From positions 456,936-520,935 of the forward strand of contig VXTP01000043.1 in NCBI GenBank assembly GCA_009837395.1: a DNA stretch of 64,000 bases, read 5' to 3'. The position numbers were made by a program, and so were the translations under genes. Shown one piece after another: positions 1-13,782 of the stretch (within the stretch, counting starts at the first letter, position 1; each line of letters starts with the position of its first letter). Origin of the DNA: Gemmatimonadota bacterium. Lineage in GTDB: Bacteria > JAAXHH01. Under the pieces are notes generated by a model. That model had not been told where the DNA came from. It saw nothing but the letters and a program-made list of their open reading frames with translations, and ran no database searches.

Positions 1-29
1 TGTCCACCGTATGCGACGGCCGGTCCTGG

Positions 30-938
30 TCATCCATCGTTACGCTCCTCGTGCATTGAACATGATGAGTCGGCGGCATTGTCCGGAATCGATTCCATAT
101 TTACCTCCACTTCAAGCTCGATATCGCCCCCTCCGAACAATACGCCTCGCGTGGGGGACACGTCCTGGTAGTCCCGCCCCACCGCCACCCGTACGTGGCG
201 TTCGTCGGCCAGCGTTGCGTTCGTGGGATCAAATCCCGTCCAGCCGGGGCCGGGCAGACGGCACTCCGCCCAGGCGTGCGAGGTCGTTCCCCCGCCGGCC
301 GCGGACTCGTCATGGAGATAGCCGGATACGTACCTGGCGGGAATGCCCCAGGTCCGCGCGACGGCGATCATGACGTGGGCGTAATCCTGGCATACGCCGC
401 GACCGGTATCCAGAATGTGTTCGATCGTGGAAGAGATCGAGGTACTCCCGGGCACGTACTCGAAGCATTCGAAGAGTGCGCCGGACAGCCGTTTCAGCGA
501 GGCCAGCGGGTCTCCCGCGGGTGCTATGCCGCTTCGTTGCACGAACCTTTCAAGGGCAGGAGAAGGAAGGGCCAGGCCGCTGTGATCCATATAGTCCCAC
601 TGGTGGAACGAATCGCGCCAGCTCCGGATGGTCTCCCAGGCGCCTTCTTCGCACTTTTCGGGTGGCGCATCACTTGCCCTGACGTCAACCGTTGAACGTG
701 CGGTGATGGACAGCGACTGGTGTTCGTGGTTCAGGTGAAGCTGGTGACGCGCATTGCCGAACGCGTCCGTGACCGGAAAGACCGAGCCTTCCGGTTCCGT
801 CCCGACCCGGAACGCGGAGACGCGCTGCCTGCGGTCCTCGATTGGTCTGAGTGCCAGGGACATGGCGCAGTTTCGCACGGGTAAGCCATAACGGTACTTC
901 GTGACATGCTCAATCCGGTATCGCACGTGTTTGGCCAT
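30..938 (-). CDS. Transglutaminase-like family protein (N-terminal bacterial TGase-like region plus TGase core)
   Basis: 302-aa ORF. Motifs GRGVCQDYAHVMIAVARTWGIPARYVSGY and SHAWAECRLPGPGWTGFDPTN are typical of the transglutaminase-like cysteine protease core. It is the last gene of a cpATP-grasp/alpha-E/TGase triad, 5 bp from the upstream gene. Confidence 0.8.
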   Translation of the reverse strand: MAKHVRYRIEHVTKYRYGLPVRNCAMSLALRPIEDRRQRVSAFRVGTEPEGSVFPVTDAFGNARHQLHLNHEHQSLSITARSTVDVRASDAPPEKCEEGAWETIRSWRDSFHQWDYMDHSGLALPSPALERFVQRSGIAPAGDPLASLKRLSGALFECFEYVPGSTSISSTIEHILDTGRGVCQDYAHVMIAVARTWGIPARYVSGYLHDESAAGGGTTSHAWAECRLPGPGWTGFDPTNATLADERHVRVAVGRDYQDVSPTRGVLFGGGDIELEVEVNMESIPDNAADSSCSMHEERNDG

Positions 939-942
939 AGCG

Positions 943-1911
943 TCATCGTACAGCCAGAGATTCCAGGGGATAGTCGATATAGGCGTCCATAATCTGCCGG
1001 TGAAGCTTCCGGCTGGCGCCGTTCACCTGTTCCAATGTGGCGCTCCAGGCCGAAACGTCGTTCCTGCCGTCCCGGACGACCACGCAAAGAGAGGCGCTGA
1101 TCGATACCGCTTCCCTGCTCGCATCGGGCGACGGACCCGATCCAATGGCGTCCAGCACGGAGGCGATCGCGTCGAGGGACCGGCGCAATGAACCTGGAAG
1201 CAGTGCGTCTGTTACGATCAGGTCGAGCACCTGTCCGGGCTGAACCACTACGCTGTAGGCATGCACGTAGGCGTCGAAGGCGCGGAACACGTGCAGCAGG
1301 TTCGCCCAGTCCGCGTCGAACGATTCGTCCTGCCTGTCCTGCGCCGCGATCTGCGCCAACAGGACCGATGCGGAAAGCTGCACCCGTTCAATGTACCTGC
1401 CCAGCTGGATGAAATGCCAGCCTTCATCGCGGTACATGGTCGCCTCGGCCACGCCGGTGAAAGTGGCGATGTCCTTTGCCGTCCCCGCGTAAAAAGACTC
1501 CGGGGCCGTCTTCCATATCTCCTGGATGGTCAACCCCTGCAAGCGCAGGAAGGTCAGATTCAGCGAAAGCCACATCTCGGCGCTGATGTAGTTGCGGGCC
1601 TGCCGCGCGTTCTCCCGGGCATAGGCGAAACAGTTCCATATGGAATCCGGATTCGTGGGTTCGAAAGTAAGATGATCGGCCAGGGTATAGGAGTCGGCCA
1701 GCGCGTAGTCGTCGCTGCCGAAGGCTTCCAGCGTACCGGCTGGGGGAAGCTGGCTCATGCTGCTGTACACGCGGTTCCAACCGAAATGGATCTCGCGAAG
1801 CGGACGGTCCACCAGCGTCTCCACCTGCAGCTGCATCAAGCGGCTGAGGTGGGCAGCGCGCTCCAGATACCGGCCCATCCAGTACAGGCCCTGTGCGCTT
1901 CTGGACAGCAT
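943..1911 (-). CDS. Alpha-E domain protein (DUF403 family)
   Basis: 322 aa. The N-terminus LSRSAQGLYWMGRYLERAAHLSRL is the hallmark of the alpha-E family. Its start abuts the stop of the upstream ATP-grasp gene (1911/1912). Confidence 0.8.
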   Translation of the reverse strand: MLSRSAQGLYWMGRYLERAAHLSRLMQLQVETLVDRPLREIHFGWNRVYSSMSQLPPAGTLEAFGSDDYALADSYTLADHLTFEPTNPDSIWNCFAYARENARQARNYISAEMWLSLNLTFLRLQGLTIQEIWKTAPESFYAGTAKDIATFTGVAEATMYRDEGWHFIQLGRYIERVQLSASVLLAQIAAQDRQDESFDADWANLLHVFRAFDAYVHAYSVVVQPGQVLDLIVTDALLPGSLRRSLDAIASVLDAIGSGPSPDASREAVSISASLCVVVRDGRNDVSAWSATLEQVNGASRKLHRQIMDAYIDYPLESLAVR

Positions 1912-3345
1912 TCAGTCCCCCAGTACCCAGACGTCCTTGCCTCCGCCCCCCTGGCTGGAGTTTACGACCAGGCTGCCCTCACGCAGCGCGACCCGGCAGA
2001 ACGCACCCGGCACGATACGGGTCTCGCGGCCATGGAGCACGAAGGGCCGCAGGTCCACGTGCCGCGGCGCGGCACGGCCCCCGATCAGGCAGGGCGCGCG
2101 CGAAAGGTCCAGTACGGGCTGCGAAATGAAGTCCGCGGGGTCTTCCCGCAATGCGCGGGCGCAGGCTTCTCGTTCATCAGGCGTCGATTCCGGCCCGACC
2201 AGCATGCCGTGACCTCCCGACCCGCCTACCTGTTTCACGACGAGGTCCCGGAGGTTGTCCAGGGTGAACTCGAGATCCTCCGGACGTCGGCAGATGTAGG
2301 TCTTCACGTTCGGCAGCAGCGGTTCTTCGGCCAGGTAGTACCGTATCATATCGGGGACGTAGGCGTATACGCTCTTGTCGTCCGCGACGCCGGTGCCCGG
2401 CGCGTTCACCAGCGTGACGTTTCCGGCCCGGTAGACGCCCATGAGGCCCGGGAAGCCCAGCAGGGAGTCCGTCCGGAATACGAGCGGGTCCAGGAAATCG
2501 TCGTCCACCCGCCGGTAGATGACGTCCACCCTTTGCAGCCCTGATGTGGTGCGCATGTATACAAAACCGCCGTCGACCAGCAGGTCCCGTCCCTCGACCA
2601 GGGTCGCACCGATCTCGTCCGCCAGGTAGATGTGCTCGTAAAACGCCGCGTTGTATACGCCGGGCGTCAGCAGCACGACGCAAGGATCGTCCTCCGCGCG
2701 CGGCGCGAGTTCCCTCAGCGTTTCACGGAGCATGTGCCCGTAATGTTCGACCTCCCGCACCCGGCAGCTGCGGTAGAGCCGGCGCAGGTTGGCCTTGACC
2801 GCCTTCCGGTTGGCGACCATGTAGGATACGCCGGAAGGTACGCGCAGGTTGTCCTCGAGCACGTGAAACCCTTCGTTCGTGCGGACCAGGTCGGTGCCGC
2901 AGACCGCGACATAGGTCCCGTGCGGCACGGTCACTCCCCGCATTTCGACGCGATATTGGGGACAGCCGCGCACCAGGTCGACCGGGACGATCCCGTCTTC
3001 GACAATGCGGGCGGGACCGTATACATCGGCAAGAAACCGGTTCAACGCCTTCAACCGCTGGGCAAGTCCGGCTTCTAGCTGCCGCCAATCTGCTGCGGGC
3101 AGGATCCGGGGCAGGCAGTCGACGGGCATGATGCGCTCGCCGGCTTCATCTCCGCCGTATACCGTAAACGTGATGCCTTCGCTGGAAAAGGAATGCGTGA
3201 CCCGCTCCTGCATGCGAACGAGTTCTTCGACGGGAAGCCGGAGCAGAGATTCGTGCAGACTGCGGCAATGTGCGCGCGGCGTACCGTCAGGCAGGAACAT
3301 CTCGTCGTAGAAAGCGCTGTCCAGGTCGTATGCGTCGAAATCCAT
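1912..3345 (-). CDS. Circularly permuted type-2 ATP-grasp protein (amidoligase-like)
   Basis: Long ORF 1912-3525. The conserved N-terminal YDEMF motif lies just after Met61 (MDFDAYDLDSAFYDEMF), which is preceded by a GGGGA Shine-Dalgarno. I therefore place the start at 3345; alternatives are 3396 and 3525. Family assignment is from overall pattern (DUF404/DUF407-like). Confidence 0.7.
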   Translation of the reverse strand: MDFDAYDLDSAFYDEMFLPDGTPRAHCRSLHESLLRLPVEELVRMQERVTHSFSSEGITFTVYGGDEAGERIMPVDCLPRILPAADWRQLEAGLAQRLKALNRFLADVYGPARIVEDGIVPVDLVRGCPQYRVEMRGVTVPHGTYVAVCGTDLVRTNEGFHVLEDNLRVPSGVSYMVANRKAVKANLRRLYRSCRVREVEHYGHMLRETLRELAPRAEDDPCVVLLTPGVYNAAFYEHIYLADEIGATLVEGRDLLVDGGFVYMRTTSGLQRVDVIYRRVDDDFLDPLVFRTDSLLGFPGLMGVYRAGNVTLVNAPGTGVADDKSVYAYVPDMIRYYLAEEPLLPNVKTYICRRPEDLEFTLDNLRDLVVKQVGGSGGHGMLVGPESTPDEREACARALREDPADFISQPVLDLSRAPCLIGGRAAPRHVDLRPFVLHGRETRIVPGAFCRVALREGSLVVNSSQGGGGKDVWVLGD

Positions 3346-3693
3346 TACGAGGGTCCCCGATCGTCGGACCAGCTCATGCTTTCCACCGGCTAACATGTTA
3401 TATCGGGCAAAGCGGTAGATCAAGGGAAGTCTCCTCGCGCGATCAGGGCCCGGACGGCAAGACTTCATTGTCCAGCCGTGACATAAGCAAACCTGCCTTC
3501 TGCCGCCAACATTTCTATTGCGCATTCAAGTTCACTCGGTATAATCACGCTTGGGTCTATTCACTCGTCAGGTGTACCGTCCGCGCACGAATCCCGTCTC
3601 GCTGATACCGGTAACAACGGCCTGATCGTCCTTTCAACACAACCTGAGACATAACCGGAGGTTTCCGCGTTAGTCAAAGCAGCGGGAGATGGA

Positions 3694-5046
3694 TTGATGG
3701 GCGCTACGCTGGCGAATACACTTACCGCGTATTTTGACTTCATCTGGATGTCCTTCCTGTTGCTGGGTCCGATGTTGATCCTGGGTCTGCTGCTCTCCGG
3801 CCTGATCCACGTGTTCATCTCCCGCGAAGCGATCCTCAGATGGCTCCGGGACGACAGCCTCCGGTCGGTCTCCGTCAGCTCCGCGGTCGGTGTGCCAATT
3901 CCGCTTTGCAGCTGCTCTGTCGTCCCCGTCGTGGCTGAAATGCGACGGAAGGGCGCATCCCGTTCGTCTTGCATGGCCTTCCTGATCACCGCGCCGGAGA
4001 CCGGAGCGGACTCCATCCTCGTCACCAACGCATTTTTCGGGTTCGTCGCCGCCTTGGTACGTCCCGCCATCAGTTTTATCACGGCTGTCGTGGCGGGCGT
4101 TTTCTGCATTGGTCTGATCAGGGACGACAGCGGTGCTGTCAAGCCGAGGGAGGAAGATCACGACCATGGCCGCGACCAACATGACCATCACGACCAAGGC
4201 CGCGACCAACATGACCATCGCCACGCGGGTCACATTCCGTTGACATCGGTCAGGGACGATTGCTATGTCAGTCCCTCCGCCATGAAAGTCATGGTAACGC
4301 GGTGGATAAATGAAATAACCACCGTGGCTTCCACCTGGAGGTTCGGATCGAGGATCAAGCCCGGATTATACCGCGAAATCGATGGTGAACAGGCGAGAAA
4401 GTCTGGCAAGGTCGGCGAAGCGGACCGGGTGGAAGCGCAATACCCCGGGCTCGATTTCAAGAAGATCGTCCGTCACATCATGCACTACGGCTTTGTGGAG
4501 ATCGCCGACGATATACTCTTTGCGCTGCTCGTCGGTATCGCGCTGGGTGGCGTGCTCTTTCTTGTCATTCCGGCCGACCTGATGTCGAACGATTACGCAC
4601 GTTGGCTGTCCTATCCCGTCATGATTATCGTCGGTGTGCCCCTCTACATCTGCGCCTCGGCCAGCACACCGATAGCGGCTGCGCTGGTTGCCCGAGGCGT
4701 GAGCCCCGGCGCCGCGCTGATTTTCCTGATGACAGGACCGGCTACCAACACGAGTACCATCGCCATCATCATGAGTCGATTCGGCGCGCGCTTCGCGGCC
4801 GTTTACGTTACCTCCGTCATCGCGGTTACCGTCGTGATTGGCATAGCCATCGATTTCATGCTGCTCTCGACGGGCTTCACGATTACCGTCAACCTGCTCC
4901 CTTCCGAATCCCCCACGATCCAGTTCATACAGTGGGGCGGTGCAATGGCATTGATCGCGCTGATCATCTGGCGGTACCGCGCAGGTGCCATGCGCAGAGG
5001 ATACGAAGACATGATGGCCAACTTCAGGACTCGTACTGCGAAATGA
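3694..5046 (+). CDS. SO_0444-family (COG0701) metal permease with a His-rich cytoplasmic loop
   Basis: 450 aa with multiple TM segments and CxC motifs (PLCSCSVVP). The loop DHDHGRDQHDHHDQGRDQHDHRHAGH is encoded by a tandem DNA repeat at about 4150-4218. The stop overlaps the downstream ZIP gene start (ATGA at 5043-5046). Confidence 0.7.
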   Translation: MMGATLANTLTAYFDFIWMSFLLLGPMLILGLLLSGLIHVFISREAILRWLRDDSLRSVSVSSAVGVPIPLCSCSVVPVVAEMRRKGASRSSCMAFLITAPETGADSILVTNAFFGFVAALVRPAISFITAVVAGVFCIGLIRDDSGAVKPREEDHDHGRDQHDHHDQGRDQHDHRHAGHIPLTSVRDDCYVSPSAMKVMVTRWINEITTVASTWRFGSRIKPGLYREIDGEQARKSGKVGEADRVEAQYPGLDFKKIVRHIMHYGFVEIADDILFALLVGIALGGVLFLVIPADLMSNDYARWLSYPVMIIVGVPLYICASASTPIAAALVARGVSPGAALIFLMTGPATNTSTIAIIMSRFGARFAAVYVTSVIAVTVVIGIAIDFMLLSTGFTITVNLLPSESPTIQFIQWGGAMALIALIIWRYRAGAMRRGYEDMMANFRTRTAK

Positions 5047-5993
5047 ACGATATCGTCTTGCTACTCCTTGCGTATTCGACGGTGATCTTTGCCGTGTCCC
5101 TGATCGGTGGCAAGCTCTCGGCCGTTGTCACCCTGACCCACACCCGGACGCATCTGGTCATGAGTTTCGTGGCGGGGTTTCTTCTGGGCGTCGCCATGTA
5201 CCATCTGCTGTTGCACAGCCTCGATGACATCCCCGGTCCGCATGCCGGTGAAATCGCCGTGGGTTGCGTGGTACTGGGCGTCATCATGATGATCGTACTG
5301 CTGCGGTTCTTCAGGTTCCATCAACACGAATTCGGCCAGGATGCGGTCCTAATATCGGATCATGATGACCAGCCCGACCAGCCCGACCAGCACGGCCACC
5401 CGGTCCAGCACGGCCACCCGGTCCAGCACGGCCACCCGGTCCAGCACGGCCATCATGCTGCGGTAGTCGTCAATCCCCGAAGCGTGTTCGGTGTCGCCAC
5501 GGGCCTCGGCCTGCATACCATCACCGAGGGGATCGCCCTCGGCTCAAGCATGCGAGTGGGACTGATTCACGACGAGGGAGCGAGCCTCGTGGGACTGGGC
5601 GTGTTTCTGGCGATCATGCTGCATAAACCCCTGGACGCATATTCCATCATCGGATTGATGCGGGTATCCGGTTACCGGAAGCGGGCCTGCTCGCTGACCA
5701 ACATCGGGTTCGCCCTGCTGTGTCCGCTCATCACCGTATTGACCTTTTACGGCGTCGGCCTGCTGAGTGAACTCGACGAACTGCATGTGGTGGGTTACGT
5801 CATGGCCTTCGCCGCCGGTGTTTTCCTGTGCATCGCCCTGAGCGACCTGCTCCCCGAGATACAGTTTCACAGCCACGACCGCGGAATCCTCGTCCTGGCC
5901 TTTCTTATAGGGGTCGGGCTCGCATACGCCCTTTTCCTCTTCGAATCCGAGACTATGCACGGGCTGGAGACGTTGGATACTCATATCCATTAG
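5043..5993 (+). CDS. ZIP-family (ZupT-like) divalent metal transporter with an (HGHPVQ)n loop
   Basis: In-frame Met (MNDIVLLLLAYST...) inside the long ORF 4602-5993. It has a ZIP-like TM topology, conserved HxxxD/E-type TM motifs and the central loop DQPDQPDQHGHPVQHGHPVQHGHPVQHGH. The start overlaps the upstream stop as ATGA. Confidence 0.7.
   Translation: MNDIVLLLLAYSTVIFAVSLIGGKLSAVVTLTHTRTHLVMSFVAGFLLGVAMYHLLLHSLDDIPGPHAGEIAVGCVVLGVIMMIVLLRFFRFHQHEFGQDAVLISDHDDQPDQPDQHGHPVQHGHPVQHGHPVQHGHHAAVVVNPRSVFGVATGLGLHTITEGIALGSSMRVGLIHDEGASLVGLGVFLAIMLHKPLDAYSIIGLMRVSGYRKRACSLTNIGFALLCPLITVLTFYGVGLLSELDELHVVGYVMAFAAGVFLCIALSDLLPEIQFHSHDRGILVLAFLIGVGLAYALFLFESETMHGLETLDTHIH
5370..5455 (+). repeat. 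In-frame tandem repeat (9-bp x2 then 18-bp x3-4) encoding DQPDQP(HGHPVQ)n in the ZIP transporter
   Basis: The unit cagcacggccacccggtc is repeated three times, followed by a degenerate copy. Confidence 0.8.
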
Positions 5994-6020
5994 CATCCCC
6001 CAGCGCCGCGAGCTGCGCCT

Positions 6021-8249
6021 ATGTCGACTTCCATCCAGGGAACACCAAACGACGTGGATACCGAAACCCGCGTATTCCAGGTAGAGGGCATGACTTGCAG
6101 CGCGTGCTCGGCAAGGGTAGAAAAGATCCTCGCCCAGGTCCCCGGTGTCGCTGCCGCCCACGTGAACCTCGCGCTGGAAAGAGCGACGCTGACCGTTGCG
6201 CCCGGCGTGGAAGAAGGCGCGCTGGCCGGGCCCGTAGCCGCCGCGGGGTACCGGCTGAACGCCATTCAGGACGATCGACACGAGCCCGAGAAGAATCCTG
6301 GTCAGTCACGCCGGGACCGTATCGCCATGGTCGTCGCGATTTGCCTGACGATTCCCTTCCTGCTGCAGATGCTGGCCGGACTGCTGCGGGGCTGGACCGG
6401 TTTCGACGGGCACATGCCCGTATACGCGGAAGCGATGCTCGCGACCGTACTGCAGATCGGGGTCGGCGCCCGCTACTACCGGAGCGCTTTCCACGCGCTG
6501 CGCGGTGGCAGCGCGAACATGGACGTACTGGTGGCCCTTGGAACCACTGCGGCCTATGCGTACAGTGGTTACCTCGCCTTCCGCCTGGGGGCCGCCGCGG
6601 CAGGCCTGCTCTACTTCGAAGCCTCCGCGATCATCATTACCCTCGTACTCATCGGCAAGCACATCGAGACCCGGGCGCGTCGCAGCGCGAGCCGGGCGAT
6701 TCGGGAACTGCTCGCGATCCGGCCGGTCACCGCGCGGGTACGGACTGCAGACGGCACGGAGCGGGATACGCCGGTACATGCCTTGAAGGCCGGTGACGTC
6801 GTCATCTGCCGTCCAGGCGACCGGGTGGCCGCAGACGGTGTCGTGCTCCGGGGCGAAGCCGAGATCGACGAAGCGCTTATCACAGGTGAGAGCGTCCCGG
6901 CGTCCAAACACCCGACCGACAACGTGATCGCCGGATCGATGAACGTCAACGGCTTCCTGGAAATCGAGGCCCGGGCCGTAGGGAGCGATTCGACGCTGGG
7001 ACGGGTGATACGCCTGGTCGAAAGCGCGCAGGCTGCCAAGCCGGCGATTCAGCGCATGGTGGATCGCGTAAGCGCTGTTTTCGTACCGGTGGTCGTCGGC
7101 CTGGCCGTGATCACCTTCACCGCGTGGGCCCTTTCAGGGGCCGGCCTGGATTCCGCGTTGATCAATGCCGTCTCCGTCCTCGTCATCGCCTGTCCTTGCG
7201 CGCTGGGCCTGGCGACGCCGACGGCCATCGTGGCCGGTGCGGGCGTGGCGGCCAGGGCGGGCATCCTGATCCGGGATATCGAATCCCTGGAACAGTCGAA
7301 CGACCTGACGCACGTCATTTTCGACAAGACGGGCACGCTGACCGAAGGCCGGCCCGTGATCGCGGCCGTCACGCCCCTGGCCGAGCGGGATGAAGGCGAT
7401 CTGATACGGATCGCCACATCGCTGCAGCAGGGCAGTGAGCATCCCTTCGCCGCCGCGTTTCTGCGCATGGCCACGGAACGGTACCTCGCCCTTTCAGATG
7501 TAAGAGGATTCAGGAGCGTGGTAGCGAAAGGCGTCCAGGGAGACATCGATGGCACACGCTACCTGCTGGGAAACCGGAGGCTCTTCGAAGCATACTGTCC
7601 GGGCATCACGCCGCCCGATGTACCGGATGACGGGGGTTTCACGGCGGTTTGGCTGGCAGCCCGAACCGATGCCGGATGCGCATTCCTCGCGCGATTCGAT
7701 CTCATCGACGCGTTGCGGTCCGATGCCGTCGAGGCGGTGGACGGGCTCAGAAAGCTGGGGGTCAGGATCCTGCTGGTTTCGGGCGACGCGGAGACCGTCG
7801 TGGAGCGTATCGGACGGCAGGCCGGCGTTGACGAAACCCACGGCGCCGCTACGCCGGTAGAAAAGGAGCGTATCGTAAGCCGGCTGGCAGAAGGCGGCGC
7901 GAAGGTCTGTATGGTCGGCGACGGGATCAATGACGCACCCGCCCTCGCCCGGGCTACCGTGGGGATCGCTATGGGCTCCGGTACGGACGTGGCCATGGAA
8001 ACGGCCGCGATCACGCTGATGAGACCCAATCCGACCCTTGTGGCCGGCGCGATCGACGTGAGCCGGAAGACGATCCGGAAAATCAAGCAGAATCTGTTCT
8101 GGGCGTTTATCTACAACGTGATCGGACTGCCCCTCGCGACGCTGGGATTCCTCGTCCCCGCGTTCGCTGCGGCCATGATGGCAGCCTCCAGCATCAGCGT
8201 CGTCCTGAACGCGCTGACGCTTCGCTCGTGGCGTCCAGGAACCAGGTAG
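6021..8249 (+). CDS. copA: Copper-translocating P1B-type ATPase
   Basis: 742 aa. N-terminal HMA domain with GMTCSACSARVE, TM CPC motif (ACPCALG), DKTGTLT phosphorylation site and GDGINDAPAL hinge. Confidence 0.9.
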   Translation: MSTSIQGTPNDVDTETRVFQVEGMTCSACSARVEKILAQVPGVAAAHVNLALERATLTVAPGVEEGALAGPVAAAGYRLNAIQDDRHEPEKNPGQSRRDRIAMVVAICLTIPFLLQMLAGLLRGWTGFDGHMPVYAEAMLATVLQIGVGARYYRSAFHALRGGSANMDVLVALGTTAAYAYSGYLAFRLGAAAAGLLYFEASAIIITLVLIGKHIETRARRSASRAIRELLAIRPVTARVRTADGTERDTPVHALKAGDVVICRPGDRVAADGVVLRGEAEIDEALITGESVPASKHPTDNVIAGSMNVNGFLEIEARAVGSDSTLGRVIRLVESAQAAKPAIQRMVDRVSAVFVPVVVGLAVITFTAWALSGAGLDSALINAVSVLVIACPCALGLATPTAIVAGAGVAARAGILIRDIESLEQSNDLTHVIFDKTGTLTEGRPVIAAVTPLAERDEGDLIRIATSLQQGSEHPFAAAFLRMATERYLALSDVRGFRSVVAKGVQGDIDGTRYLLGNRRLFEAYCPGITPPDVPDDGGFTAVWLAARTDAGCAFLARFDLIDALRSDAVEAVDGLRKLGVRILLVSGDAETVVERIGRQAGVDETHGAATPVEKERIVSRLAEGGAKVCMVGDGINDAPALARATVGIAMGSGTDVAMETAAITLMRPNPTLVAGAIDVSRKTIRKIKQNLFWAFIYNVIGLPLATLGFLVPAFAAAMMAASSISVVLNALTLRSWRPGTR

Positions 8250-8272: not shown

Positions 8273-10456
8273 TCAGGCGGGTTGGTCGGAAGGGGAAGCG
8301 GCGGGGGGTTCCGGTGCGTTCTCGACGGCGGCCAGTGGCAGCCTGATGGCCATTTCGGTGTATTGGCCAGATTCCGAATCCACCTCGATCGAACCACCGT
8401 GTTCACGGACGATATCGTTCGACAGGGCCAGGCCGAGGCCAGTGCCCTCGTCGGTGGGCTTGGTGGTGAAGAAGGGGTTGAAGATCTTGTCGATCACGTG
8501 GGGCGGAATCCCCTTGCCGTTGTCCTTTATCCGGACGACGAGCTGATCCTCCTCGCGGCGGGTGGACAACCAGATGCCAGGTACGTAACCGGATTCCGTG
8601 TCCGGATCCTCACGCTTCTCGTTGGTGGCGTGACAGGCGTTGTTCACCATGTTCAGGAATACCCGGGCCATTTCCTGGGAAACGATCTCGATCTCGCCCA
8701 GATCGGATTCGAAGTCTTCGTGGATTTCAAGCTGGAAGTCCGCGTTCGATGCCCGGGCGGCATGGTAGGCGAGGCGGGCGTGTTCTTCCAGCAGGGCATT
8801 GATGTCCGTCGACTGTTTATCTCCCGAACCTCGGCCCATCTGAAGCATATCGCGCACGATGCGGTTGGCCCGTTCGCCATGCTCCCGGATCCGGCGCAGG
8901 TTTTCCGTGAGGTCGCCGCCGATCTCCTTGATCAGTCCGTCCTGCTCCTCGTCGATCGAGCCGCCGGCCTCGGGCAGTTCTTCCTTCATTTCCTCGAGGA
9001 GTTCTTCCGAGGACTCCGCGAAGTTCTTGACGAAGTTCAACGGGTTCTGGATCTCGTGCGCCACGCCCGCGGTGAGTTCGCCCAGGGCCGCCAGTTTCTC
9101 CCGCATGACGATCTGGTCCTGCGCTTTCTGCAGTTCTGCCAGGGTGCTCTCCAGCTCGTCGTTTTTTCCGCGCAGTTCCTCGGCCAGTTTCTCAACGAGG
9201 TTCAGCCTTTGCGCTTCGATGGAGTGAAGCCTGAAGACTTCCAGCGCGGCGGCCATGTCCGCCACCTCGTCACGGCCGTCCAGTTCGACTTTCTGCTTCA
9301 GATCCCCTCCCGCCATCCGCCGCATGTGTTCCGATAGAAACCCCAGCCTGCGCAGCAGCACCTTGCCGACGAACAACCACGCGATCAGCAAGGCGCCGAC
9401 CAGACTGACCGCGTTCAGGGCCAGGAGAAGCTGCCGGCCCACCTGGATCGTCTGCGTCGACGCGACCGTGGCGGCCCGGGTACTCTCCTGCGCCGAATTC
9501 ACGAGGCTTTCCACTTCGGCCACCAGTTCGACGGAGAGATCCCGGTTGTTTTCGATCAGGGCCCGTTGCTGAGCGATCAGGTCCAGGTCCTCTCCGCGAA
9601 TCTCGAAGATCTTCCCCTGGCCGCTGCCCAGTTCGAAGAGCTGGGCGAATACCGGTTCGAGCCGTTGCCGCAGGGGCGCCGTACCCAGGCCGGCGAGACT
9701 TCGCTCCACGCCGCCGTCGGCCGACTCGAAGCGTTCCAGCAGGGGTTCCAGCCGATCGGCATCGGACAGGTTGAAGACGTTAGACAGGATCCGGGTGCTG
9801 ACGGTCGCCTCGGCCTGCAGATCGGCCAGATGCCTGTAACGTTGCAGTTCCTCTTCGGAGAGGTATTCCTCGCGGGGCGCCACCGGCTGATCGATGTCCC
9901 GGTATCCCGTTACCGTGTAGAACAACTGGTTGTCAATCGCCGGGACCAGGATATTCGTCAGTTCGAACTGCAGCCGTTCCAGTTCAAGACGAAGCTGCCG
10001 GCCCTGCTCCTGGAGCACGAAGCGTCTGGCCACGGACTCCTCGATCATTTCGATATTCGACATCAGCGTGTTGCCGGCTTCGCTGATGTGTTGAAAGCGT
10101 TCGTCTTCCATGCCGTAGCCGGCGATGGCTTCCAGCTGCACCGCGAAACTCTCCCGTTCCTCGGCGATGCTCGCGGTTACGGATTCAAAGGTTTCGGGGG
10201 TTTCCGCGGCCGTCAGGCGCGGCGCGGCCGCCGCCAGCGTCCCGCTCCGCTGGGCCACGCCGAAGGCCGCCGCGATCTCCGGTACGGCGACCTCGTTTAC
10301 TTCGCGCTGGGCCTCGCCGACCTCGTTGAAGGCGAACCACGCCACCATACTGGCCAGCATGGTCAGCGCTACCGCCGCCCCGATGCCCAGGTACAACTGC
10401 CCCGATATTCGGGAAGGGCCCTTGTCGTACAACCACAACAGCCACTGCTTGATCAT
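8273..10456 (-). CDS. Sensor histidine kinase (TM-periplasmic domain-TM-HAMP-HisKA-HATPase)
   Basis: 727 aa. Two hydrophobic segments flank a periplasmic region of about 300 aa. A HAMP-like region follows TM2. H-box LAALGELTAGVAHEIQNPLNF and G-box GTGLGLALS are present. The start overlaps the upstream binding-protein stop (10453-10456). Confidence 0.85.
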   Translation of the reverse strand: MIKQWLLWLYDKGPSRISGQLYLGIGAAVALTMLASMVAWFAFNEVGEAQREVNEVAVPEIAAAFGVAQRSGTLAAAAPRLTAAETPETFESVTASIAEERESFAVQLEAIAGYGMEDERFQHISEAGNTLMSNIEMIEESVARRFVLQEQGRQLRLELERLQFELTNILVPAIDNQLFYTVTGYRDIDQPVAPREEYLSEEELQRYRHLADLQAEATVSTRILSNVFNLSDADRLEPLLERFESADGGVERSLAGLGTAPLRQRLEPVFAQLFELGSGQGKIFEIRGEDLDLIAQQRALIENNRDLSVELVAEVESLVNSAQESTRAATVASTQTIQVGRQLLLALNAVSLVGALLIAWLFVGKVLLRRLGFLSEHMRRMAGGDLKQKVELDGRDEVADMAAALEVFRLHSIEAQRLNLVEKLAEELRGKNDELESTLAELQKAQDQIVMREKLAALGELTAGVAHEIQNPLNFVKNFAESSEELLEEMKEELPEAGGSIDEEQDGLIKEIGGDLTENLRRIREHGERANRIVRDMLQMGRGSGDKQSTDINALLEEHARLAYHAARASNADFQLEIHEDFESDLGEIEIVSQEMARVFLNMVNNACHATNEKREDPDTESGYVPGIWLSTRREEDQLVVRIKDNGKGIPPHVIDKIFNPFFTTKPTDEGTGLGLALSNDIVREHGGSIEVDSESGQYTEMAIRLPLAAVENAPEPPAASPSDQPA

Positions 10457-11754
10457 GGCATCACGTCCCGGAGGGTACGGATGGGATGGTAACGGCCATC
10501 CTGTCCGATCACCGTAAGGAAGACCGCGTCCGAACCCTGGTTATCCCCTTCGCCGAACTCGAGACGAAGACCGCCCAGGTCGATCGTCCCCGCCCGGTTC
10601 AGACTCTCCATGAGGCAGGATCGCCTTACGTCAGGGCCACAGCCCTCGAGGGCGGTGATCGTCAGCTTGCCGGCGAGGTATCCTTCGAAGGAAACGAATC
10701 CGGGGGTCGTGCCCGGCGCGTGCGCGGAGAGCGCTCTGCGGTACTGGACGGCGATGGCGATGTTACCGGCCGCGGGGAAGGGCACCACCTGAGAGACCAG
10801 GACACCGCGTCCGTCGGGACCCAGTTCTCCGGCCAGCGCATTACTCCCCACGAATGAAATCGTTGCGAATACGGGATTGAAACCCACGTGCCGCGCCCAC
10901 GCGATGAGCGTGGCAACCGGCTGGTAGGCGCCGATCACCACCACAGCGTCCGGTTTTCCCTGCTGCAGATCGAGCAGGCCGGCCTTGATCGCGGTGGTGT
11001 TCCTCGGATACACGCCGATCGCTACGGGATCGAGTTGCCGGCGCTCCAGCGCGCGCCGTACGCCGCGGTATCCGACCCGGCCGAAGGAGTCGTTCTGGTA
11101 CATCACACCGATGCGGGTGATGCCGAGATCGCGCGAAAGCCGGTCGACGATTTCCTCGGTCTCCTGGAAATAGGAGGCCCGCAGGTTAATGACGCCCGTA
11201 TCCGTGTTGTCACGTAAAAAAATCGCGCCGGTGAATGGCGCGATATAGGGTACGCCGGCCTCCGAAGTAATGGGAACGGCCGAGCGGGAGGTAGGGGTGC
11301 CGACGGCACCGATGAGCGCGAAAACCTCTTCTTCCTCGATCAGTTTCCGGGTATTCGCGATCGCGGCTTCCGGTTCATAGGCGTCATCGAGCGTGATCAG
11401 CTCGAGCTGCCTTCCGTGTACGCCGCCCCGGCGATTCGCTTCCTGGAAGGCCGCCTCGATCCCGAGGTTCATGTTCCGCCCGAGTTCGCGGGCGGGTCCG
11501 CTGAAGGCCGCGGACTGGCCGAAGAGTATGCGTTCGGCCGTCACACCGGGCTCGGTCGCCGCTCCGGGCTCGGTCGCCGCTCCGGGCTCGGTCACCGCTC
11601 CGGGCTCGGTCACCGCTCCGGGCTCGGTCACCGCTCCGGGCTCTTCGACCTGGGAGGCGTTCGCGCCGCTGTTTTCAGAGGATAAAGCGGGAGAGAACGC
11701 CGTCGCACAAAGGGCGAGCAGGATGACCGCCCAGTGGTCGCGCGTTCGTCTCAT
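10453..11754 (-). CDS. Periplasmic solute-binding protein (type-1 PBP, Leu/Ile/Val-binding-like) with an (EPGAVT)n linker
   Basis: 433 aa with an N-terminal signal peptide (ILLALCATAFSPALS). It has the LivK-like fold pattern. The low-complexity linker TEPGAVTEPGAVTEPGAVTEPGAATEPGAATEPG is encoded by an 18-bp tandem repeat at about 11539-11646. It overlaps both neighbouring genes by 4 nt. Confidence 0.75.
   Translation of the reverse strand: MRRTRDHWAVILLALCATAFSPALSSENSGANASQVEEPGAVTEPGAVTEPGAVTEPGAATEPGAATEPGVTAERILFGQSAAFSGPARELGRNMNLGIEAAFQEANRRGGVHGRQLELITLDDAYEPEAAIANTRKLIEEEEVFALIGAVGTPTSRSAVPITSEAGVPYIAPFTGAIFLRDNTDTGVINLRASYFQETEEIVDRLSRDLGITRIGVMYQNDSFGRVGYRGVRRALERRQLDPVAIGVYPRNTTAIKAGLLDLQQGKPDAVVVIGAYQPVATLIAWARHVGFNPVFATISFVGSNALAGELGPDGRGVLVSQVVPFPAAGNIAIAVQYRRALSAHAPGTTPGFVSFEGYLAGKLTITALEGCGPDVRRSCLMESLNRAGTIDLGGLRLEFGEGDNQGSDAVFLTVIGQDGRYHPIRTLRDVMP
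11539..11646 (-). repeat. In-frame 18-bp tandem repeat (about 6 copies) encoding the (EPGAVT)n linker of the solute-binding protein
   Basis: The units ggctcggtcgccgctccg and ggctcggtcaccgctccg are repeated back to back. Confidence 0.8.
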
Positions 11755-12176
11755 CCGTTTTCCTTCCGCTTGACGATCGTGAGTATGTTCTGGTTGTCTT
11801 CGCGGCGGTAGCTCAGTTCATCCATCATGGTCCGGACGAGGTAGATACCCAGGCCGCCCACGGGCCGATCGTCCAGTCCGGAGTCGACATCCGGTTCCGG
11901 CGAATCGGTCAGGGGGTTGAAGGCCCGTCCCTCGTCCCGCAATTCGATCGTGAGGGCTTCGGTATCCGAGCTCATCACGATTTCGAATTCATGGTCGGGA
12001 TCGCCGCCGTGGCCGTGCGTGACGATATTCACGCCCAGTTCCTCGAGGACCAGCTTGACCTGGTAGACCATACCCGGCGGCCATTCTTCGGTCTCGCCGA
12101 GTTCATCCACCGCTTCGTAGATGCGCTCCAGCTGGTCAAGCTTCGTGGGCAGGCTTAGGGACAGTCTTCTGCTCAT
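11751..12176 (-). CDS. Anti-sigma regulatory factor, serine kinase (RsbW/SpoIIAB-like, HATPase_c_2)
   Basis: 141 aa. GHGGDP, DEG..FNP and GGLGIYL motifs are typical of RsbW-type GHKL kinases. It lies between the REC-PP2C gene and the binding-protein gene. Confidence 0.75.
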   Translation of the reverse strand: MSRRLSLSLPTKLDQLERIYEAVDELGETEEWPPGMVYQVKLVLEELGVNIVTHGHGGDPDHEFEIVMSSDTEALTIELRDEGRAFNPLTDSPEPDVDSGLDDRPVGGLGIYLVRTMMDELSYRREDNQNILTIVKRKENG

Positions 12177-12178
12177 GG

Positions 12179-13342
12179 TCAGACCTGGCGTTGAAGCACG
12201 GTAACACAGGTAATATCATCCGATTGCGGCGTTTCTCCGGCGAACTCATGGACCGCCTTGAACACCGCTTTGTTTGCGTCTTCCGTACTGCCGGGAGGGT
12301 CATCCGCGAAAACCGCCTGCAGGCGGTCCATGCCGAATTCCTCCCCGTCGGCGTTCATGGCTTCCGTTACGCCGTCGGTATAGAGCAACAGGAGATCGCC
12401 CGGGGAGAGCACAACGGCGGACTGGCCGAAATTTACGCCCGGAAAAACCCCGAGCGCCAGGCCGTCCGTACCGGGGAGAAGCGTCGATGAGCCGTCGGAA
12501 TGCACCACCAGCGGAGGATTGTGCCCTCCGTTGGAATAGTCCACCTGTCCGGTCTGGGGGTTGTATACCGCGTAGAAAGTCGTGACGAACATGGCCGCTT
12601 CGTTTTCCTCGGTAAGCAGGTCGTTGACCTCCTTGAGCACGGCGCCCGGTTCGATGGCGCCGATCGCCGAGCCCTTCAGCAGGGTCCTGCTGGACATCAT
12701 GAACAGGGCGGCAGGAACGCCCTTGTCGGAAACATCGGCGATGGCCAGGGCGATCTTGCCTCCGGGCAGGCCGAAAACGTCGAAAAAGTCGCCGCCAACC
12801 TCCCGGGCCGGTTCCATGTTCGCGTATATCTCGCAATGATCGGAATCTGGGAACTCGGTGGGCAGAATCGACTGCTGCATCTTGCTGGCCACGTTCAGTT
12901 CGTTCTGCAGCCGAACGAGCTTGTCCCGCGACTCCAGGGCTTCGCGCCATTCCTCCATGTTCTTCAGCGTACGTTCAATCGTTACCCGCAAGTCCTGGAA
13001 ATCGATCGGCTTGGTAATGAAATCGAAGGCGCCCCGGTTCATGGCCGTGCGGATGTTCTTCATGTCCCCGTAGGCGGATACCACCACGGCGCGGATGTCG
13101 GGGGCAATGTTCGGTATCTGCGCCAGCAGCGTAAGACCGTCCATCCGGGGCATGTTGATATCGGACAGGACCATGTCTATATCGGGCACTTCATTGAGGC
13201 GTTCCAGGGCTTCCACGCCGTTCTGGGCGAAATATAGCGTATACAGGCCGGAACGCACGTCACGGCGCATGCGCTGCCGCATCAGGTGTTCGAGATCCGG
13301 CTCGTCGTCCACTACAAGGATTTTGTACGGTGTCTGCGTCAT
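12179..13342 (-). CDS. Response-regulator receiver fused to PP2C (SpoIIE/RsbU-type) phosphatase
   Basis: 387 aa. N-terminal REC domain (ILVVDDEPDL, phospho-acceptor LSDINMPRMDG). C-terminal PP2C domain with GGDFFDV and ADVSDKG metal-binding motifs. Confidence 0.85.
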   Translation of the reverse strand: MTQTPYKILVVDDEPDLEHLMRQRMRRDVRSGLYTLYFAQNGVEALERLNEVPDIDMVLSDINMPRMDGLTLLAQIPNIAPDIRAVVVSAYGDMKNIRTAMNRGAFDFITKPIDFQDLRVTIERTLKNMEEWREALESRDKLVRLQNELNVASKMQQSILPTEFPDSDHCEIYANMEPAREVGGDFFDVFGLPGGKIALAIADVSDKGVPAALFMMSSRTLLKGSAIGAIEPGAVLKEVNDLLTEENEAAMFVTTFYAVYNPQTGQVDYSNGGHNPPLVVHSDGSSTLLPGTDGLALGVFPGVNFGQSAVVLSPGDLLLLYTDGVTEAMNADGEEFGMDRLQAVFADDPPGSTEDANKAVFKAVHEFAGETPQSDDITCVTVLQRQV

Positions 13343-13443
13343 TTCACCCCCGGAAACCGCCGCGGCCTATACTGTTTCCGCTATACGCCACACAGCGCTT
13401 TGGAATAAACGCTGCGACGCAGTGTGGAAACAGGTAGAGGCGT

Positions 13444-13782
13444 TTACCGGCCGATCTTATCCACTGCTTCGGCCTGGGAATCGTGAATGGATATGATCTT
13501 GTCGAAACCGCTGATTTCGAAGACTTCCCGGATCGGATCCGAAAGCGAGCACAATGCGAACGCGGCATTACGCTTCTGGAGCAGTCGCGCGATCAGCAGG
13601 ATGACCCTCAGGCCCGCGCTGCTTATGTAGGACAAGGCACTGAAATCCAGCAGCACCTTGCTGTCGTCTTCACCGATGGCGCCGTTGAGCGCGTCTTCGA
13701 ATTCCCGCGCGTTGGCGCCGTCGATTCGACCTTCAACCTTCGCAATAAGTACTTCGTTTGCTCGGTCGACACTGATCTCCAT
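13444..13782 (-). CDS. STAS-domain anti-sigma-factor antagonist (RsbV/SpoIIAA-like)
   Basis: 112 aa. The motif DFSALSYISSAGLRVIL carries the conserved phosphorylatable Ser in the DxSxxxxxSSxG context. It is the first gene of the minus-strand operon. Confidence 0.8.
   Translation of the reverse strand: MEISVDRANEVLIAKVEGRIDGANAREFEDALNGAIGEDDSKVLLDFSALSYISSAGLRVILLIARLLQKRNAAFALCSLSDPIREVFEISGFDKIISIHDSQAEAVDKIGR

What the first reader, a model, noticed from the sequence alone, without database searches (positions are those of the whole stretch)
30..3525. Circularly permuted ATP-grasp / alpha-E / transglutaminase triad, placed divergently from a metal-efflux cluster
The three minus-strand genes have abutting coordinates (1911/1912) or a 5-bp gap. 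They form a conserved amidoligase-type cassette. The ATP-grasp enzyme is predicted to make or modify a peptide or metabolite and the transglutaminase-like thiol peptidase to process it. No substrate or product has been defined for this cassette. Here it shares a roughly 170-300 bp divergent control region with the His-rich permease / ZIP / copA genes, which hints at co-regulation with metal stress. That region, 3526-3693, contains a TATAAT hexamer and a duplicated ttcactcg motif.
Basis: partly seen in the sequence, partly recalled or inferred. Interest (0 to 1): 0.5.

Follow-up and report, generated by a model that had tools for sequence, protein, structure and literature searches.

The report
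Known amidoligase operon; metal link incidental
The three genes are an intact copy of a widespread, already catalogued bacterial operon (ATP-grasp ligase, alpha-E protein, transglutaminase-like enzyme) of unknown chemistry; comparison with 80 related genomes shows its metal-pump neighbours are a recent local insertion, while its recurring partners are an ammonium transporter and a nutrient-sensing signalling module.

Summary
The gene triad is real. Pfam gives CP_ATPgrasp_2 (2e-154), Alpha-E (3e-62) and Bact_transglu_N plus Transglut_core, all full length, with tightly coupled genes. The ATP-grasp gene most likely starts at 3345, not 3525. The window comes from a Gemmatimonadota MAG, and NCBI already names all three proteins.

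This is the known ATP-grasp/alpha-E/transglutaminase cassette (the core of the "Anbu operon") without Anbu. Its chemistry is still undefined in the literature I could reach.

The proposed metal link is not supported:
- Metal genes lie next to the triad in only 3 of 80 related loci, the three closest relatives.
- The ttcactcg duplication and the TATAAT are at chance level and are not conserved.

In relatives from several phyla the triad is linked to orthologues of the window's own STAS / REC-PP2C / RsbW-like / periplasmic-binding-protein / TorS-like kinase genes (8273-13782). The linkage holds in four different arrangements. An ammonium transporter is also frequent (27/80), usually between the ATP-grasp and alpha-E genes.

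The ArsP-ZIP-CopA block (3697-8249) therefore looks like an insertion between the kinase gene and the triad. Together with published NtrC/sigma-54 and nitrogen-limitation induction of homologues, nitrogen status is the best-supported context. This is an ordinary member of a known kind; interest is modest.

The parts
1912..3345 (-). Circularly permuted ATP-grasp amidoligase, 477 aa. The ORF can be read up to 3525, but that extension is not conserved.
   Evidence: Pfam CP_ATPgrasp_2 2.2e-154 and CP_ATPgrasp_1 4.5e-138. PDB 3n6x 5e-160 over residues 13-477. Most of the 80 homologues align from residue 1. NCBI MXZ76271.1 is 477 aa.
943..1911 (-). Alpha-E protein, 322 aa. Its start codon abuts the ATP-grasp stop.
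   Evidence: Pfam PF04168 2.9e-62. Both ER motifs are invariant in 46 homologues (E17 R18, E175 R176). The AF2 model is all-helical, pLDDT 74. No solved relative by sequence.
30..938 (-). Transglutaminase-like Cys-His-Asp enzyme, 302 aa, 4 nt after alpha-E.
   Evidence: Bact_transglu_N 1.3e-20 plus Transglut_core 6.4e-24. C183, H221 and D237 are conserved in at least 97% of 46 homologues.
1..37 (-). Start of a fourth, overlapping gene that runs off the window: a 636-650 aa alpha/beta serine hydrolase.
   Evidence: Seen in L081 5364-7316, L082 5248-7158 and L001 13355-15304. AXE1-like, with a GLSGGG nucleophile elbow. Present only in L001-L003-type genomes.
3391..3423 (-). Candidate promoter/operator of the triad. 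TTGATC (3418-3423), 15 nt, TATAAC (3397-3402), overlapping the perfect palindrome TAACATGTTA (3391-3400).
   Evidence: This is among the best-conserved non-coding stretches of the spacer in the window and L001-L003. Palindrome I5. Unique in the window. Function is inferred, not shown; the 15-nt spacer is suboptimal.
3346..3696 (.). Divergent intergenic spacer between the ATP-grasp and ArsP genes.
   Evidence: The motifs are at chance level and not conserved. No sigma-54-like motif facing the triad with up to 3 mismatches; the only hit is a 3-mismatch one on the ArsP-facing strand. No sigma-70 consensus hit.
3697..8249 (+). Metal block, read here as a lineage-specific insertion. ArsP_1/SO_0444 Cu/Zn efflux 3697-5046; ZIP 5043-5993 (ATGA overlap); copper P1B-ATPase 6021-8249.
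   Evidence: Adjacent to the triad in 3 of 80 loci only. It sits on the opposite strand, between genes that are neighbours in other phyla.
8273..10456 (-). Sensor histidine kinase with TorS-like periplasmic sensor, HAMP, HisKA and HATPase domains.
   Evidence: Orthologues (46-62% identity) lie upstream of the ATP-grasp gene on the same strand in 16 loci, usually directly.
10453..11754 (-). Secreted periplasmic binding protein (Peripla_BP_6; LivJ/UrtA-like), the likely ligand-binding partner of the kinase.
   Evidence: Pfam 2.4e-53. Weak LivJ and UrtA hits. Orthologues travel with the kinase.
11751..12176 (-). RsbW-like serine kinase (HATPase_c_2), 141 aa.
   Evidence: Pfam 5.6e-28. RsbW and SpoIIAB hits.
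12179..13342 (-). Response regulator with a PP2C (SpoIIE) phosphatase output.
   Evidence: Response_reg 7.6e-25 plus SpoIIE 5.5e-53. Orthologues of 64-71% identity lie next to the triad in 25 of 80 loci.
13444..13782 (-). STAS anti-sigma-factor antagonist, 112 aa.
   Evidence: Pfam STAS 3.3e-21. TIGR00377 78 bits against a cutoff of 53.

Best explanation
Identity (shown). 30-3345 is an intact, ordinary copy of the widespread bacterial operon cpATP-grasp -> Alpha-E -> transglutaminase-like enzyme. This is the core of the 'Anbu operon', here without Anbu. In this Gemmatimonadota lineage a fourth, overlapping alpha/beta-hydrolase gene follows it.

Chemistry (inferred from the families).
- The ATP-grasp enzyme, probably working with Alpha-E, uses ATP to activate a carboxylate as an acyl-phosphate and joins it to an amine or ammonia, making an amide or isopeptide bond.
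- The Cys-His-Asp enzyme cleaves or transfers such an amide through a thioester intermediate.
- The substrate is unknown.

Context (best supported by comparison). The cassette belongs to a nitrogen or nutrient-status response, not a metal response.
- In relatives it is co-encoded with a marine-type ammonium transporter.
- It is also co-encoded with a signalling module: periplasmic binding protein + TorS-like kinase -> REC-PP2C phosphatase -> STAS / RsbW-like partner switch.
- That module is present in this window at 8273-13782, on the same strand and in the same order as in relatives.
- The ArsP-ZIP-CopA block (3697-8249) was inserted, in the opposite orientation, between the kinase gene and the triad in this lineage. 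The 'shared divergent control region' is a by-product of that insertion.
- The triad is probably now transcribed from its own promoter near 3397-3423.

Graded belief:
- Member of the cassette: 0.97.
- Metal adjacency incidental: about 0.85.
- Functional tie to nitrogen or nutrient status: about 0.6.
- Specific chemistry of ATP-driven capture of ammonia or an amine on a carboxylate, with later thiol-dependent release or transfer (analogous to gamma-glutamylation routes): about 0.2.

The overall confidence of 0.6 refers to the combined claim of known cassette, incidental metal adjacency and a nitrogen or nutrient context.
For: Identity.

Gene order and coupling are conserved in nearly all of the 80 loci.

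Source and existing annotation.

Metal genes lie next to the triad in 3 of 80 loci, the closest relatives only. There the block holds eight genes, including three Band_7 genes and a binding protein. Protein accession numbering in sister MAGs puts the kinase eight genes from the ATP-grasp gene.

Signalling module:
- STAS, PP2C or RsbW homologues (45% identity or more) lie within 10 kb in 31 of 80 loci.
- REC-PP2C of at least 60% identity in 25; the kinase in 21.
- Four arrangements occur: upstream same strand 16, upstream divergent 4, downstream convergent 3, downstream same strand 2.

Ammonium transporter (TIGR03644, 521 bits against a cutoff of 514):
- Present in 27 of 80 loci. In 17 of these it lies between the ATP-grasp and alpha-E genes on the same strand.
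- In L008 the reading frames overlap.

Literature:
- Homologous operons drop 6- to 9.4-fold in a B. cenocepacia ntrC mutant (PMC5491218).
- They are induced (log2 4.0-4.4) on nitrate versus ammonium in P. putida (PMC8050072).
- One carries a sigma-54 motif in Bradyrhizobium (PMC13207237).
- Their abundance tracks urea genes in marine metagenomes (PMC3597751).
- The Yersinia ATP-grasp protein releases phosphate from ATP (PMC6376114).
Against: - There are no expression data for this organism.
- There is no ammonium transporter anywhere in the 64-kb window.
- 36 of 80 loci show neither the signalling module nor the transporter within 10 kb.
- The 80 loci are the nearest relatives of one query and are not phylogenetically independent. 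The module may travel as a block by horizontal transfer, which inflates the counts.
- No sigma-54 promoter lies upstream of the triad, unlike the proteobacterial examples.
- The candidate sigma-70-like promoter has a 15-nt spacer and was not called by the consensus scan.
- The ArsP/ATP-grasp divergent junction is stable in at least four genomes, so lineage-specific co-regulation with metal genes cannot be excluded.
- The ligand of the binding protein is unassigned.
- The Alpha-E fold search was uninformative.
- The chemistry is inference only.
Confidence: 0.6

Rival explanations
1. The triad and the metal-efflux genes form a divergon controlled from one shared region. The cassette makes or processes a peptide or thiol compound that helps with Cu/Zn stress, for example a glutathione- or phytochelatin-like chelator.
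For: The divergent adjacency of the ATP-grasp and ArsP genes is conserved in the window and in L001-L003. The closest solved structure, 3n6x, was deposited as 'putative glutathionylspermidine synthase'. A TATAAT faces ArsP at 3540.
Against: Adjacency holds in only 3 of 80 loci. The metal block interrupts a gene order kept in other phyla. In L001-L003, unrelated Band_7 and binding-protein genes lie inside the block. There is no metal-sensor gene in the block. The motifs are at chance level and not conserved; in L001 the TATAAT reads in the opposite direction. No NCBIfam model, including those for glutathione-type ligases, matches the ATP-grasp protein. Published regulation of homologues is by nitrogen (PMC5491218, PMC8050072).
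Confidence: 0.07
2. A protein-tagging and turnover system (Iyer 2009; Valas and Bourne 2008). The ATP-grasp/Alpha-E pair ligates an amino acid or peptide tag onto target proteins. The transglutaminase-like peptidase, and here the downstream serine hydrolase in place of Anbu, removes the tag or degrades tagged proteins. This would recycle protein nitrogen during starvation.
For: The hypothesis is summarised in PMC5666114 and PMC6376114. The catalytic triad is intact. A hydrolase gene overlaps the TGase stop, in the position Anbu holds elsewhere. Nitrogen-limitation induction fits protein turnover (PMC5666114).
Against: There is no Anbu in this clade. The extra hydrolase occurs only in L001-L003-type genomes and resembles esterases of the CE7/AXE1 type rather than peptidases. 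No tag gene or target gene is evident. Yersinia operon proteins did not form detectable complexes, and Anbu showed no peptidase activity (PMC6376114). An ammonium transporter inside the operon points to small-molecule nitrogen chemistry as much as to proteolysis.
Confidence: 0.2
3. The neighbourhoods carry no functional meaning. The triad is a housekeeping or orphan operon. Its links to both the metal genes and the signalling/Amt genes reflect shared ancestry or block transfer among symbionts from one habitat.
For: Many relatives are MAGs whose names suggest one habitat (sponges). Very high cross-phylum identity of the kinase (46-62%) and REC-PP2C (64-71%) suggests block transfer. 36 of 80 loci lack both partners.
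Against: Linkage to the signalling module survives four different rearrangements, and the transporter occupies three different positions. Simple block inheritance does not predict this. Independent experimental nitrogen regulation exists in three proteobacteria that lack this module (PMC5491218, PMC8050072, PMC13207237).
Confidence: 0.15

Closest known systems
Anbu operon of Pseudomonas and Yersinia (ATP-grasp, alphaE, transglutaminase, Anbu; e.g. P. putida PP_2685-PP_2688)
   Same: It has the same three leading gene families in the same order. [quoted passage not shown] Function is unknown in both.
   Different: There is no Anbu here. In this lineage the fourth gene is instead a 636-650 aa alpha/beta serine hydrolase. 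There is no sigma-54 promoter, whereas PP_2685 and PP_2688 respond to nitrogen source (PMC8050072).
B. cenocepacia H111 I35_5080-5083 (DUF404/407, DUF403 and two transglutaminase-domain proteins), NtrC/sigma-54 activated
   Same: It carries the same domain set. It is the best experimental evidence that the cassette belongs to the nitrogen-limitation regulon (PMC5491218).
   Different: It is proteobacterial and NtrC-dependent, and has a second large transglutaminase protein. The window instead has a nearby partner-switching two-component module and shows no NtrC/sigma-54 signature.
M. tuberculosis Rv2411c-Rv2409c (my own knowledge for the operon; Rv2411c, UniProt P9WLA9, is named in the 2026 preprint 10.64898/2026.04.15.718621)
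   Same: It is an Anbu-less three-gene form, still uncharacterised. Rv2411c did not make GABA-trehalose.
   Different: It is actinobacterial. I did not examine its context here.
PDB 3n6x (Methylobacillus flagellatus, deposited as 'putative glutathionylspermidine synthase')
   Same: E = 5e-160 with an end-to-end alignment to the window ATP-grasp protein. This is a solved structure of the same family.
   Different: The deposited name is a fold-level guess. No NCBIfam functional model matches the window protein.
RsbU/RsbV/RsbW-type partner switches with a REC-PP2C input (Pseudomonas RssB-like), and the TorS/TorT arrangement of a kinase with a binding protein. These are comparators for the upstream module only.
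   Same: STAS, an RsbW-like kinase and REC-PP2C are all present. RssB_Pseudo is the best NCBIfam hit (7.9e-34). The kinase N-terminus matches TorS (TIGR02956 over residues 17-441; Pfam TorS_sensor_domain), and a binding-protein gene lies directly upstream.
   Different: All hits are far below the equivalog cutoffs. The binding protein is of the Peripla_BP_6 family, whereas TorT, to my knowledge, belongs to a different periplasmic-binding-protein family. There is no sigma-factor gene in the module. The kinase lacks the receiver and Hpt domains of TorS.
Gamma-glutamylation routes for amine nitrogen (PuuA/PuuD, GmaS). This is a mechanistic analogy from my own knowledge.
   Same: An ATP-dependent carboxylate-amine ligase is paired with a thiol-type amide hydrolase, and both are induced when nitrogen is scarce.
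   Different: Those ligases have the glutamine-synthetase fold and the hydrolases are class-I amidotransferase-like. There is no sequence relationship. This is an analogy only.

Membership tests
cpATP-grasp / Alpha-E / transglutaminase cassette (Anbu-operon core) | Full-length circularly permuted ATP-grasp domain | tested here: met
   CP_ATPgrasp_2 matched over 1-374/374, 514 bits. 3n6x 5e-160.
cpATP-grasp / Alpha-E / transglutaminase cassette (Anbu-operon core) | Alpha-E domain with conserved ER motifs | tested here: met
   PF04168 211 bits. E17 R18 and E175 R176 are invariant in 46 sequences.
cpATP-grasp / Alpha-E / transglutaminase cassette (Anbu-operon core) | Transglutaminase-like protein with the bacterial N-terminal domain and a Cys-His-Asp triad | tested here: met
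   PF08379 plus PF01841. C183, H221 and D237 are at least 97% conserved.
cpATP-grasp / Alpha-E / transglutaminase cassette (Anbu-operon core) | Gene order ATP-grasp -> Alpha-E -> TGase on one strand, tightly spaced | tested here: met
   The 1911/1912 junction abuts and the next gap is 4 nt. The same order is seen in relatives.
cpATP-grasp / Alpha-E / transglutaminase cassette (Anbu-operon core) | ATP-dependent ligase activity | not testable with these tools
   The only data are phosphate release from ATP by the Yersinia homologue (PMC6376114).
Anbu operon (four-gene form) | Proteasome-beta-like Anbu gene as the fourth gene | tested here: not met
   The gene downstream in the source lineage is an AXE1-like alpha/beta hydrolase, followed by a glycosyltransferase and an RND pump. 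No recurrent Anbu-sized (about 250 aa) neighbour cluster appeared among the 80 loci; the largest ones were read and a few spot-checked with Pfam, but not every neighbour cluster was scanned.
NtrC/sigma-54 nitrogen-limitation regulon (as in Burkholderia, Pseudomonas, Bradyrhizobium) | Sigma-54 promoter (TGGCAC-N5-TTGC) upstream of the ATP-grasp gene | tested here: not met
   No match with up to 3 mismatches on the triad-facing strand of 3346-3696; the only hit is a 3-mismatch one on the ArsP-facing strand.
NtrC/sigma-54 nitrogen-limitation regulon (as in Burkholderia, Pseudomonas, Bradyrhizobium) | Induction under nitrogen limitation | not testable with these tools
   Only indirect evidence: an ammonium transporter is embedded in or next to the operon in 27 of 80 relatives.
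   3 of 80 loci.
   ttcactcg and TATAAT are at chance level and not conserved.
   Only ArsP, ZIP and CopA lie between 3346 and 8273. A regulator encoded elsewhere cannot be excluded.
   Needs expression data.
Partner-switching module (RsbU/V/W type), upstream genes 11751-13782 | STAS antagonist, RsbW-like kinase and PP2C phosphatase encoded together | tested here: met
Partner-switching module (RsbU/V/W type), upstream genes 11751-13782 | Cognate sigma factor or other defined output partner | tested here: inconclusive
   None lies within the module. The rest of the window was not scanned for sigma factors.
Glutathionylspermidine or glutathione synthetase (label on PDB 3n6x) | Match to a curated functional model of those enzymes | tested here: not met
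   No NCBIfam family matched the ATP-grasp protein at E <= 0.01.
Anti-phage defence systems | Match to PADLOC models | tested here: not met
   No hits for the triad or for the PP2C and RsbW-like proteins.

The most novel reading that the evidence does not exclude
The triad may be the effector arm of a previously undescribed 8-9 gene nitrogen or nutrient module, exchanged horizontally among symbiont phyla. The genes are STAS, REC-PP2C, RsbW-like kinase, periplasmic binding protein, TorS-like kinase, cpATP-grasp, (Amt), Alpha-E and TGase. In this reading, an extracellular nitrogen compound sensed by the binding protein and kinase controls, through a partner switch, an ATP-driven amide-forming and amide-cleaving enzyme pair that works on imported ammonium or amines. 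If so, these compact operons would give the first concrete handle on the substrate of a cassette that has lacked a function since 2008-2009.
Probability: 0.3. Interest if true: 0.55.

Novelty: new member of a known kind. Interest (0 to 1): 0.3.

Why it matters
The cassette is found in many bacterial phyla. It includes the operon that houses Anbu, a protein discussed as an early relative of the proteasome. Its chemistry has been unknown since it was described in 2008-2009.

This copy adds nothing new on its own, and the metal-stress idea would send experiments in the wrong direction. What is useful is the comparative pattern found along the way. An ammonium transporter is inserted inside the operon. 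There is also rearrangement-resistant linkage to a binding-protein-dependent kinase and partner switch. Both agree with the published NtrC and nitrogen-limitation data. Together they narrow the search for substrates to ammonium, amine or amide chemistry, and they suggest specific conditions for assays and metabolomics.

Tried and rejected
- **Solved structures.** No sequence relative for Alpha-E. Only remote hits for the TGase. One structural-genomics entry for the ATP-grasp protein.
- **RNA and tRNA.** Rfam at gathering threshold and a tRNA scan of the whole window found nothing, so no known riboswitch was detected in the leader at that threshold.
- **Promoters.** The consensus promoter scan of 1-6200 found no sigma-70 site. 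The sigma-54 search found none facing the triad.
- **Mobile-element signs.** A search for flanking repeats, target duplications or other mobile-element signs around the metal block found none. The insertion mechanism is unknown. ArsP and ZIP have about 5% lower G+C than the flanks, which is weak evidence.
- **Upstream motifs.** The 200 nt upstream of the ATP-grasp gene in all 80 loci show no motif shared across lineages.
- **Other recurrent neighbours.** Clustering of 1,397 ORFs found nothing beyond Amt and the signalling genes in more than 8 loci. The inserts at the ATP-grasp/alpha-E junction in L016, L025 and L026 are lineage-specific.
- **Defence systems.** PADLOC gave no hits.
- **Literature.** Searches for a defined product found none. 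A 2026 preprint that mentions the terms (uS11 isoaspartate) is unrelated. Iyer et al. 2009 could not be read and is cited only through papers that summarise it.

Full report
**1. What is in the sequence**

Three minus-strand ORFs occupy 30-938, 943-1911 and 1912-3525. Pfam assigns them with full-length matches:
- Bact_transglu_N plus Transglut_core.
- Alpha-E (2.9e-62).
- CP_ATPgrasp_2 and CP_ATPgrasp_1 (2.2e-154 and 4.5e-138).

The alpha-E start abuts the ATP-grasp stop. The next gap is 4 nt.

The 537-aa ATP-grasp ORF is over-extended:
- The domain begins at residue 139.
- Most of the 80 homologues align from the Met at 3345.
- NCBI calls the gene 477 aa.
- The ATG at 3525 is not conserved in L001.

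The spacer to the divergent ArsP gene (ATG 3697) is therefore 3346-3696.

Other sequence features:
- The TGase keeps C183, H221 and D237, each at least 97% conserved in 46 homologues.
- Alpha-E keeps both ER motifs.
- The ATP-grasp protein aligns end to end with PDB 3n6x (5e-160).
- Exact look-up shows the window comes from a Gemmatimonadota MAG. NCBI already labels the proteins as circularly permuted type 2 ATP-grasp protein, alpha-E domain-containing protein and transglutaminase family protein.
- A fourth gene overlaps the TGase stop (ATG at 37-35) and leaves the window. In sister contigs it is a 636-650 aa alpha/beta serine hydrolase.

**2. The neighbours**

- An SO_0444-family Cu/Zn efflux permease (NF033936, above its cutoff).
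- A ZIP transporter, whose ATG overlaps the ArsP stop.
- A copper P1B-ATPase.

Just beyond CopA, and on the same strand as the triad, lie five signalling genes:
- A TorS-like HAMP histidine kinase (8273-10456).
- A secreted Peripla_BP_6 binding protein (10453-11754).
- An RsbW-like kinase (11751-12176).
- A REC-PP2C response regulator (12179-13342).
- A STAS antagonist (13444-13782).

**3. Test of the metal link**

I fetched 80 loci from species-representative genomes that encode close relatives of the ATP-grasp protein (70-92% identity). I then mapped homologues of all window genes onto them.

Metal genes are adjacent in only three loci, L001-L003, the nearest relatives. There, five further genes (three Band_7 genes, a binding protein and a small ORF) sit between ArsP and ZIP.

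Orthologues of the window's signalling genes behave differently:
- REC-PP2C is 64-71% identical and the kinase 46-62% identical to the window proteins.
- They lie next to the triad under many taxon labels: Chloroflexota/Dehalococcoidia, Latescibacterota, Gammaproteobacteria, Azotimanducaceae, Acidobacteria.
- Sixteen loci have the REC-PP2C orthologue upstream on the same strand. Most of these show the order STAS - REC-PP2C - RsbW - binding protein - kinase - ATP-grasp - alpha-E - TGase.

The window has exactly this order and orientation, except that the 4.6-kb metal block lies, inverted, between the kinase and the ATP-grasp gene. Accession numbering in sister MAGs places the kinase eight genes from the ATP-grasp gene, matching the L001-type insert.

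The simplest reading is that the metal genes were inserted in this lineage. The 'shared divergent control region' follows from that insertion. No transposon scars were found, so the mechanism is open.

**4.
- ttcactcg x2 and TATAAT exist.
- A repeated 8-mer arises in 14-51% of shuffles and a TATAAT in 5-9%.
- Neither is conserved in L001-L003. In L001 the AT-rich hexamer reads the other way.
- Among the best-conserved non-coding stretches of the spacer is TTGATC-N15-TATAAC, overlapping a perfect palindrome TAACATGTTA (3391-3423, triad strand). It lies 46-78 nt upstream of the ATG.
- I take this as the likely promoter/operator. That is an inference.
- There is no sigma-54 motif facing the triad.

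**5. What recurs with the triad**

Clustering of 1,397 neighbouring ORFs found only two recurrent partners.
- The signalling module: 31 of 80 loci have at least one partner-switch gene, in four different arrangements.
- An ammonium transporter of the marine subtype (TIGR03644, above its cutoff): 27 of 80 loci. In 17 of them it lies between the ATP-grasp and alpha-E genes on the same strand, and in L008 the reading frames overlap.

There is no Anbu. Linkage that survives rearrangement argues for a functional tie. The sample is not phylogenetically independent, however, and the module may move as a block.

**6. What is known**

The cassette was described by Valas and Bourne (2008) and by Iyer et al. 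(2009), as summarised in PMC5666114 and PMC6376114. It was proposed to synthesise or modify peptides.

Published experimental and survey data:
- The Yersinia ATP-grasp protein releases phosphate from ATP. No complexes among the operon proteins and no Anbu activity were found (PMC6376114).
- Expression is NtrC/sigma-54 dependent in B. cenocepacia, dropping 6- to 9.4-fold in the mutant (PMC5491218).
- It is induced on nitrate versus ammonium in P. putida (log2 4.0-4.4 for PP_2685 and PP_2688; PMC8050072).
- It carries a sigma-54 motif in Bradyrhizobium (PMC13207237).
- The domains co-vary with urea genes in marine metagenomes (PMC3597751).
- A 2026 preprint still lists Rv2411c as uncharacterised and found that it does not make GABA-trehalose (10.64898/2026.04.15.718621).

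I found no paper that defines a product.

**7. Interpretation**
- **Shown:** identity, gene structure, the corrected start and the comparative neighbourhood statistics.
- **Inferred with fair support:** the metal adjacency is incidental, and the physiological context is nitrogen or nutrient status.
- **Inferred weakly:** the chemistry. This would be ATP-grasp/Alpha-E forming an amide from a carboxylate and ammonia or an amine, with the Cys-His-Asp enzyme cleaving or transferring it, perhaps like gamma-glutamylation routes.

The protein-tagging model remains a live rival.

The Alpha-E model (pLDDT 74) gave only generic helical-bundle matches. Defence-system models do not match.

**8. Verdict**

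This is an ordinary, already annotated member of a known cassette of unknown chemistry. The comparative by-product, an ammonium transporter and a partner-switch kinase module as recurring partners, is a modest but usable lead.

Noticed in passing
window 1-37 (minus strand); L081 5364-7316; L001 13355-15304: A fourth gene overlaps the TGase stop codon and runs off the window. It encodes a 636-650 aa alpha/beta serine hydrolase (GLSGGG elbow; AXE1/CE7-like; 6fkx 2e-10). It is found only in the Gemmatimonadota-like lineage and occupies the slot that Anbu has in Anbu operons.
   Followed up: partly
L001-L080: The kinase (46-62%), the REC-PP2C (64-71%) and the ATP-grasp protein (70-82%) are unusually similar across MAGs labelled as different phyla. 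Many of these MAG names look sponge-associated (APA_bin, RHO3, COS3, SB0662). This suggests the whole module is shared horizontally within one habitat. For comparison, the ATP-grasp protein appears roughly 55-58% identical to Methylobacillus 3n6x, by eye from the alignment.
   Followed up: partly
L008 11416-12900 and 16 other loci; L016 11433-15433; L025 5419-6591; L026 11612-11992: The ATP-grasp/alpha-E junction is an insertion hot spot in relatives. Inserts include the ammonium transporter (17 loci), DUF1800 + DUF1501 + an NHL propeller, a PD40 propeller, and an aspartyl-protease-like ORF.
   Followed up: partly
window 3346-3400 and L001 about 9870-10000: The 5' leader of the ATP-grasp gene lacks an 83-nt segment present in L001-L003; that segment carries repeated GCATGAGCAAG-like units. 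Next to the palindrome, a conserved GTTAN-N6-GAAAG resembles the actinobacterial GlnR box gTnAc-n6-GaAAc. That resemblance is from memory only and is an untested lead.
   Followed up: no
window 5360-5458 and 4157-4216: The His-rich loops of the ZIP and ArsP transporters are encoded by tandem DNA repeats: a 9-nt period with 8 registers in ZIP, and 30 nt x 2 at 97% identity in ArsP.
   Followed up: no
window about 11550-11650 (within 10453-11754, minus strand): The periplasmic binding protein has a TEPGA(V/A) x5 repeat linker directly after its signal peptide.
   Followed up: no
L001 7255-9591: In L001 the ArsP reading frame continues without a stop into a Band_7/SPFH gene, giving a 778-aa ORF. 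This could be a fusion or an assembly or frame artefact. Two more Band_7 genes and a second Peripla_BP_6 gene follow inside the metal block.
   Followed up: no
window 13925-19163: Directly upstream of the STAS gene lie two PhyH-family dioxygenase genes on opposite strands (13925-14716 minus, 14963-15940 plus). They are followed by a class-V aminotransferase (SufS-like) gene and a SufB/D gene.
   Followed up: no
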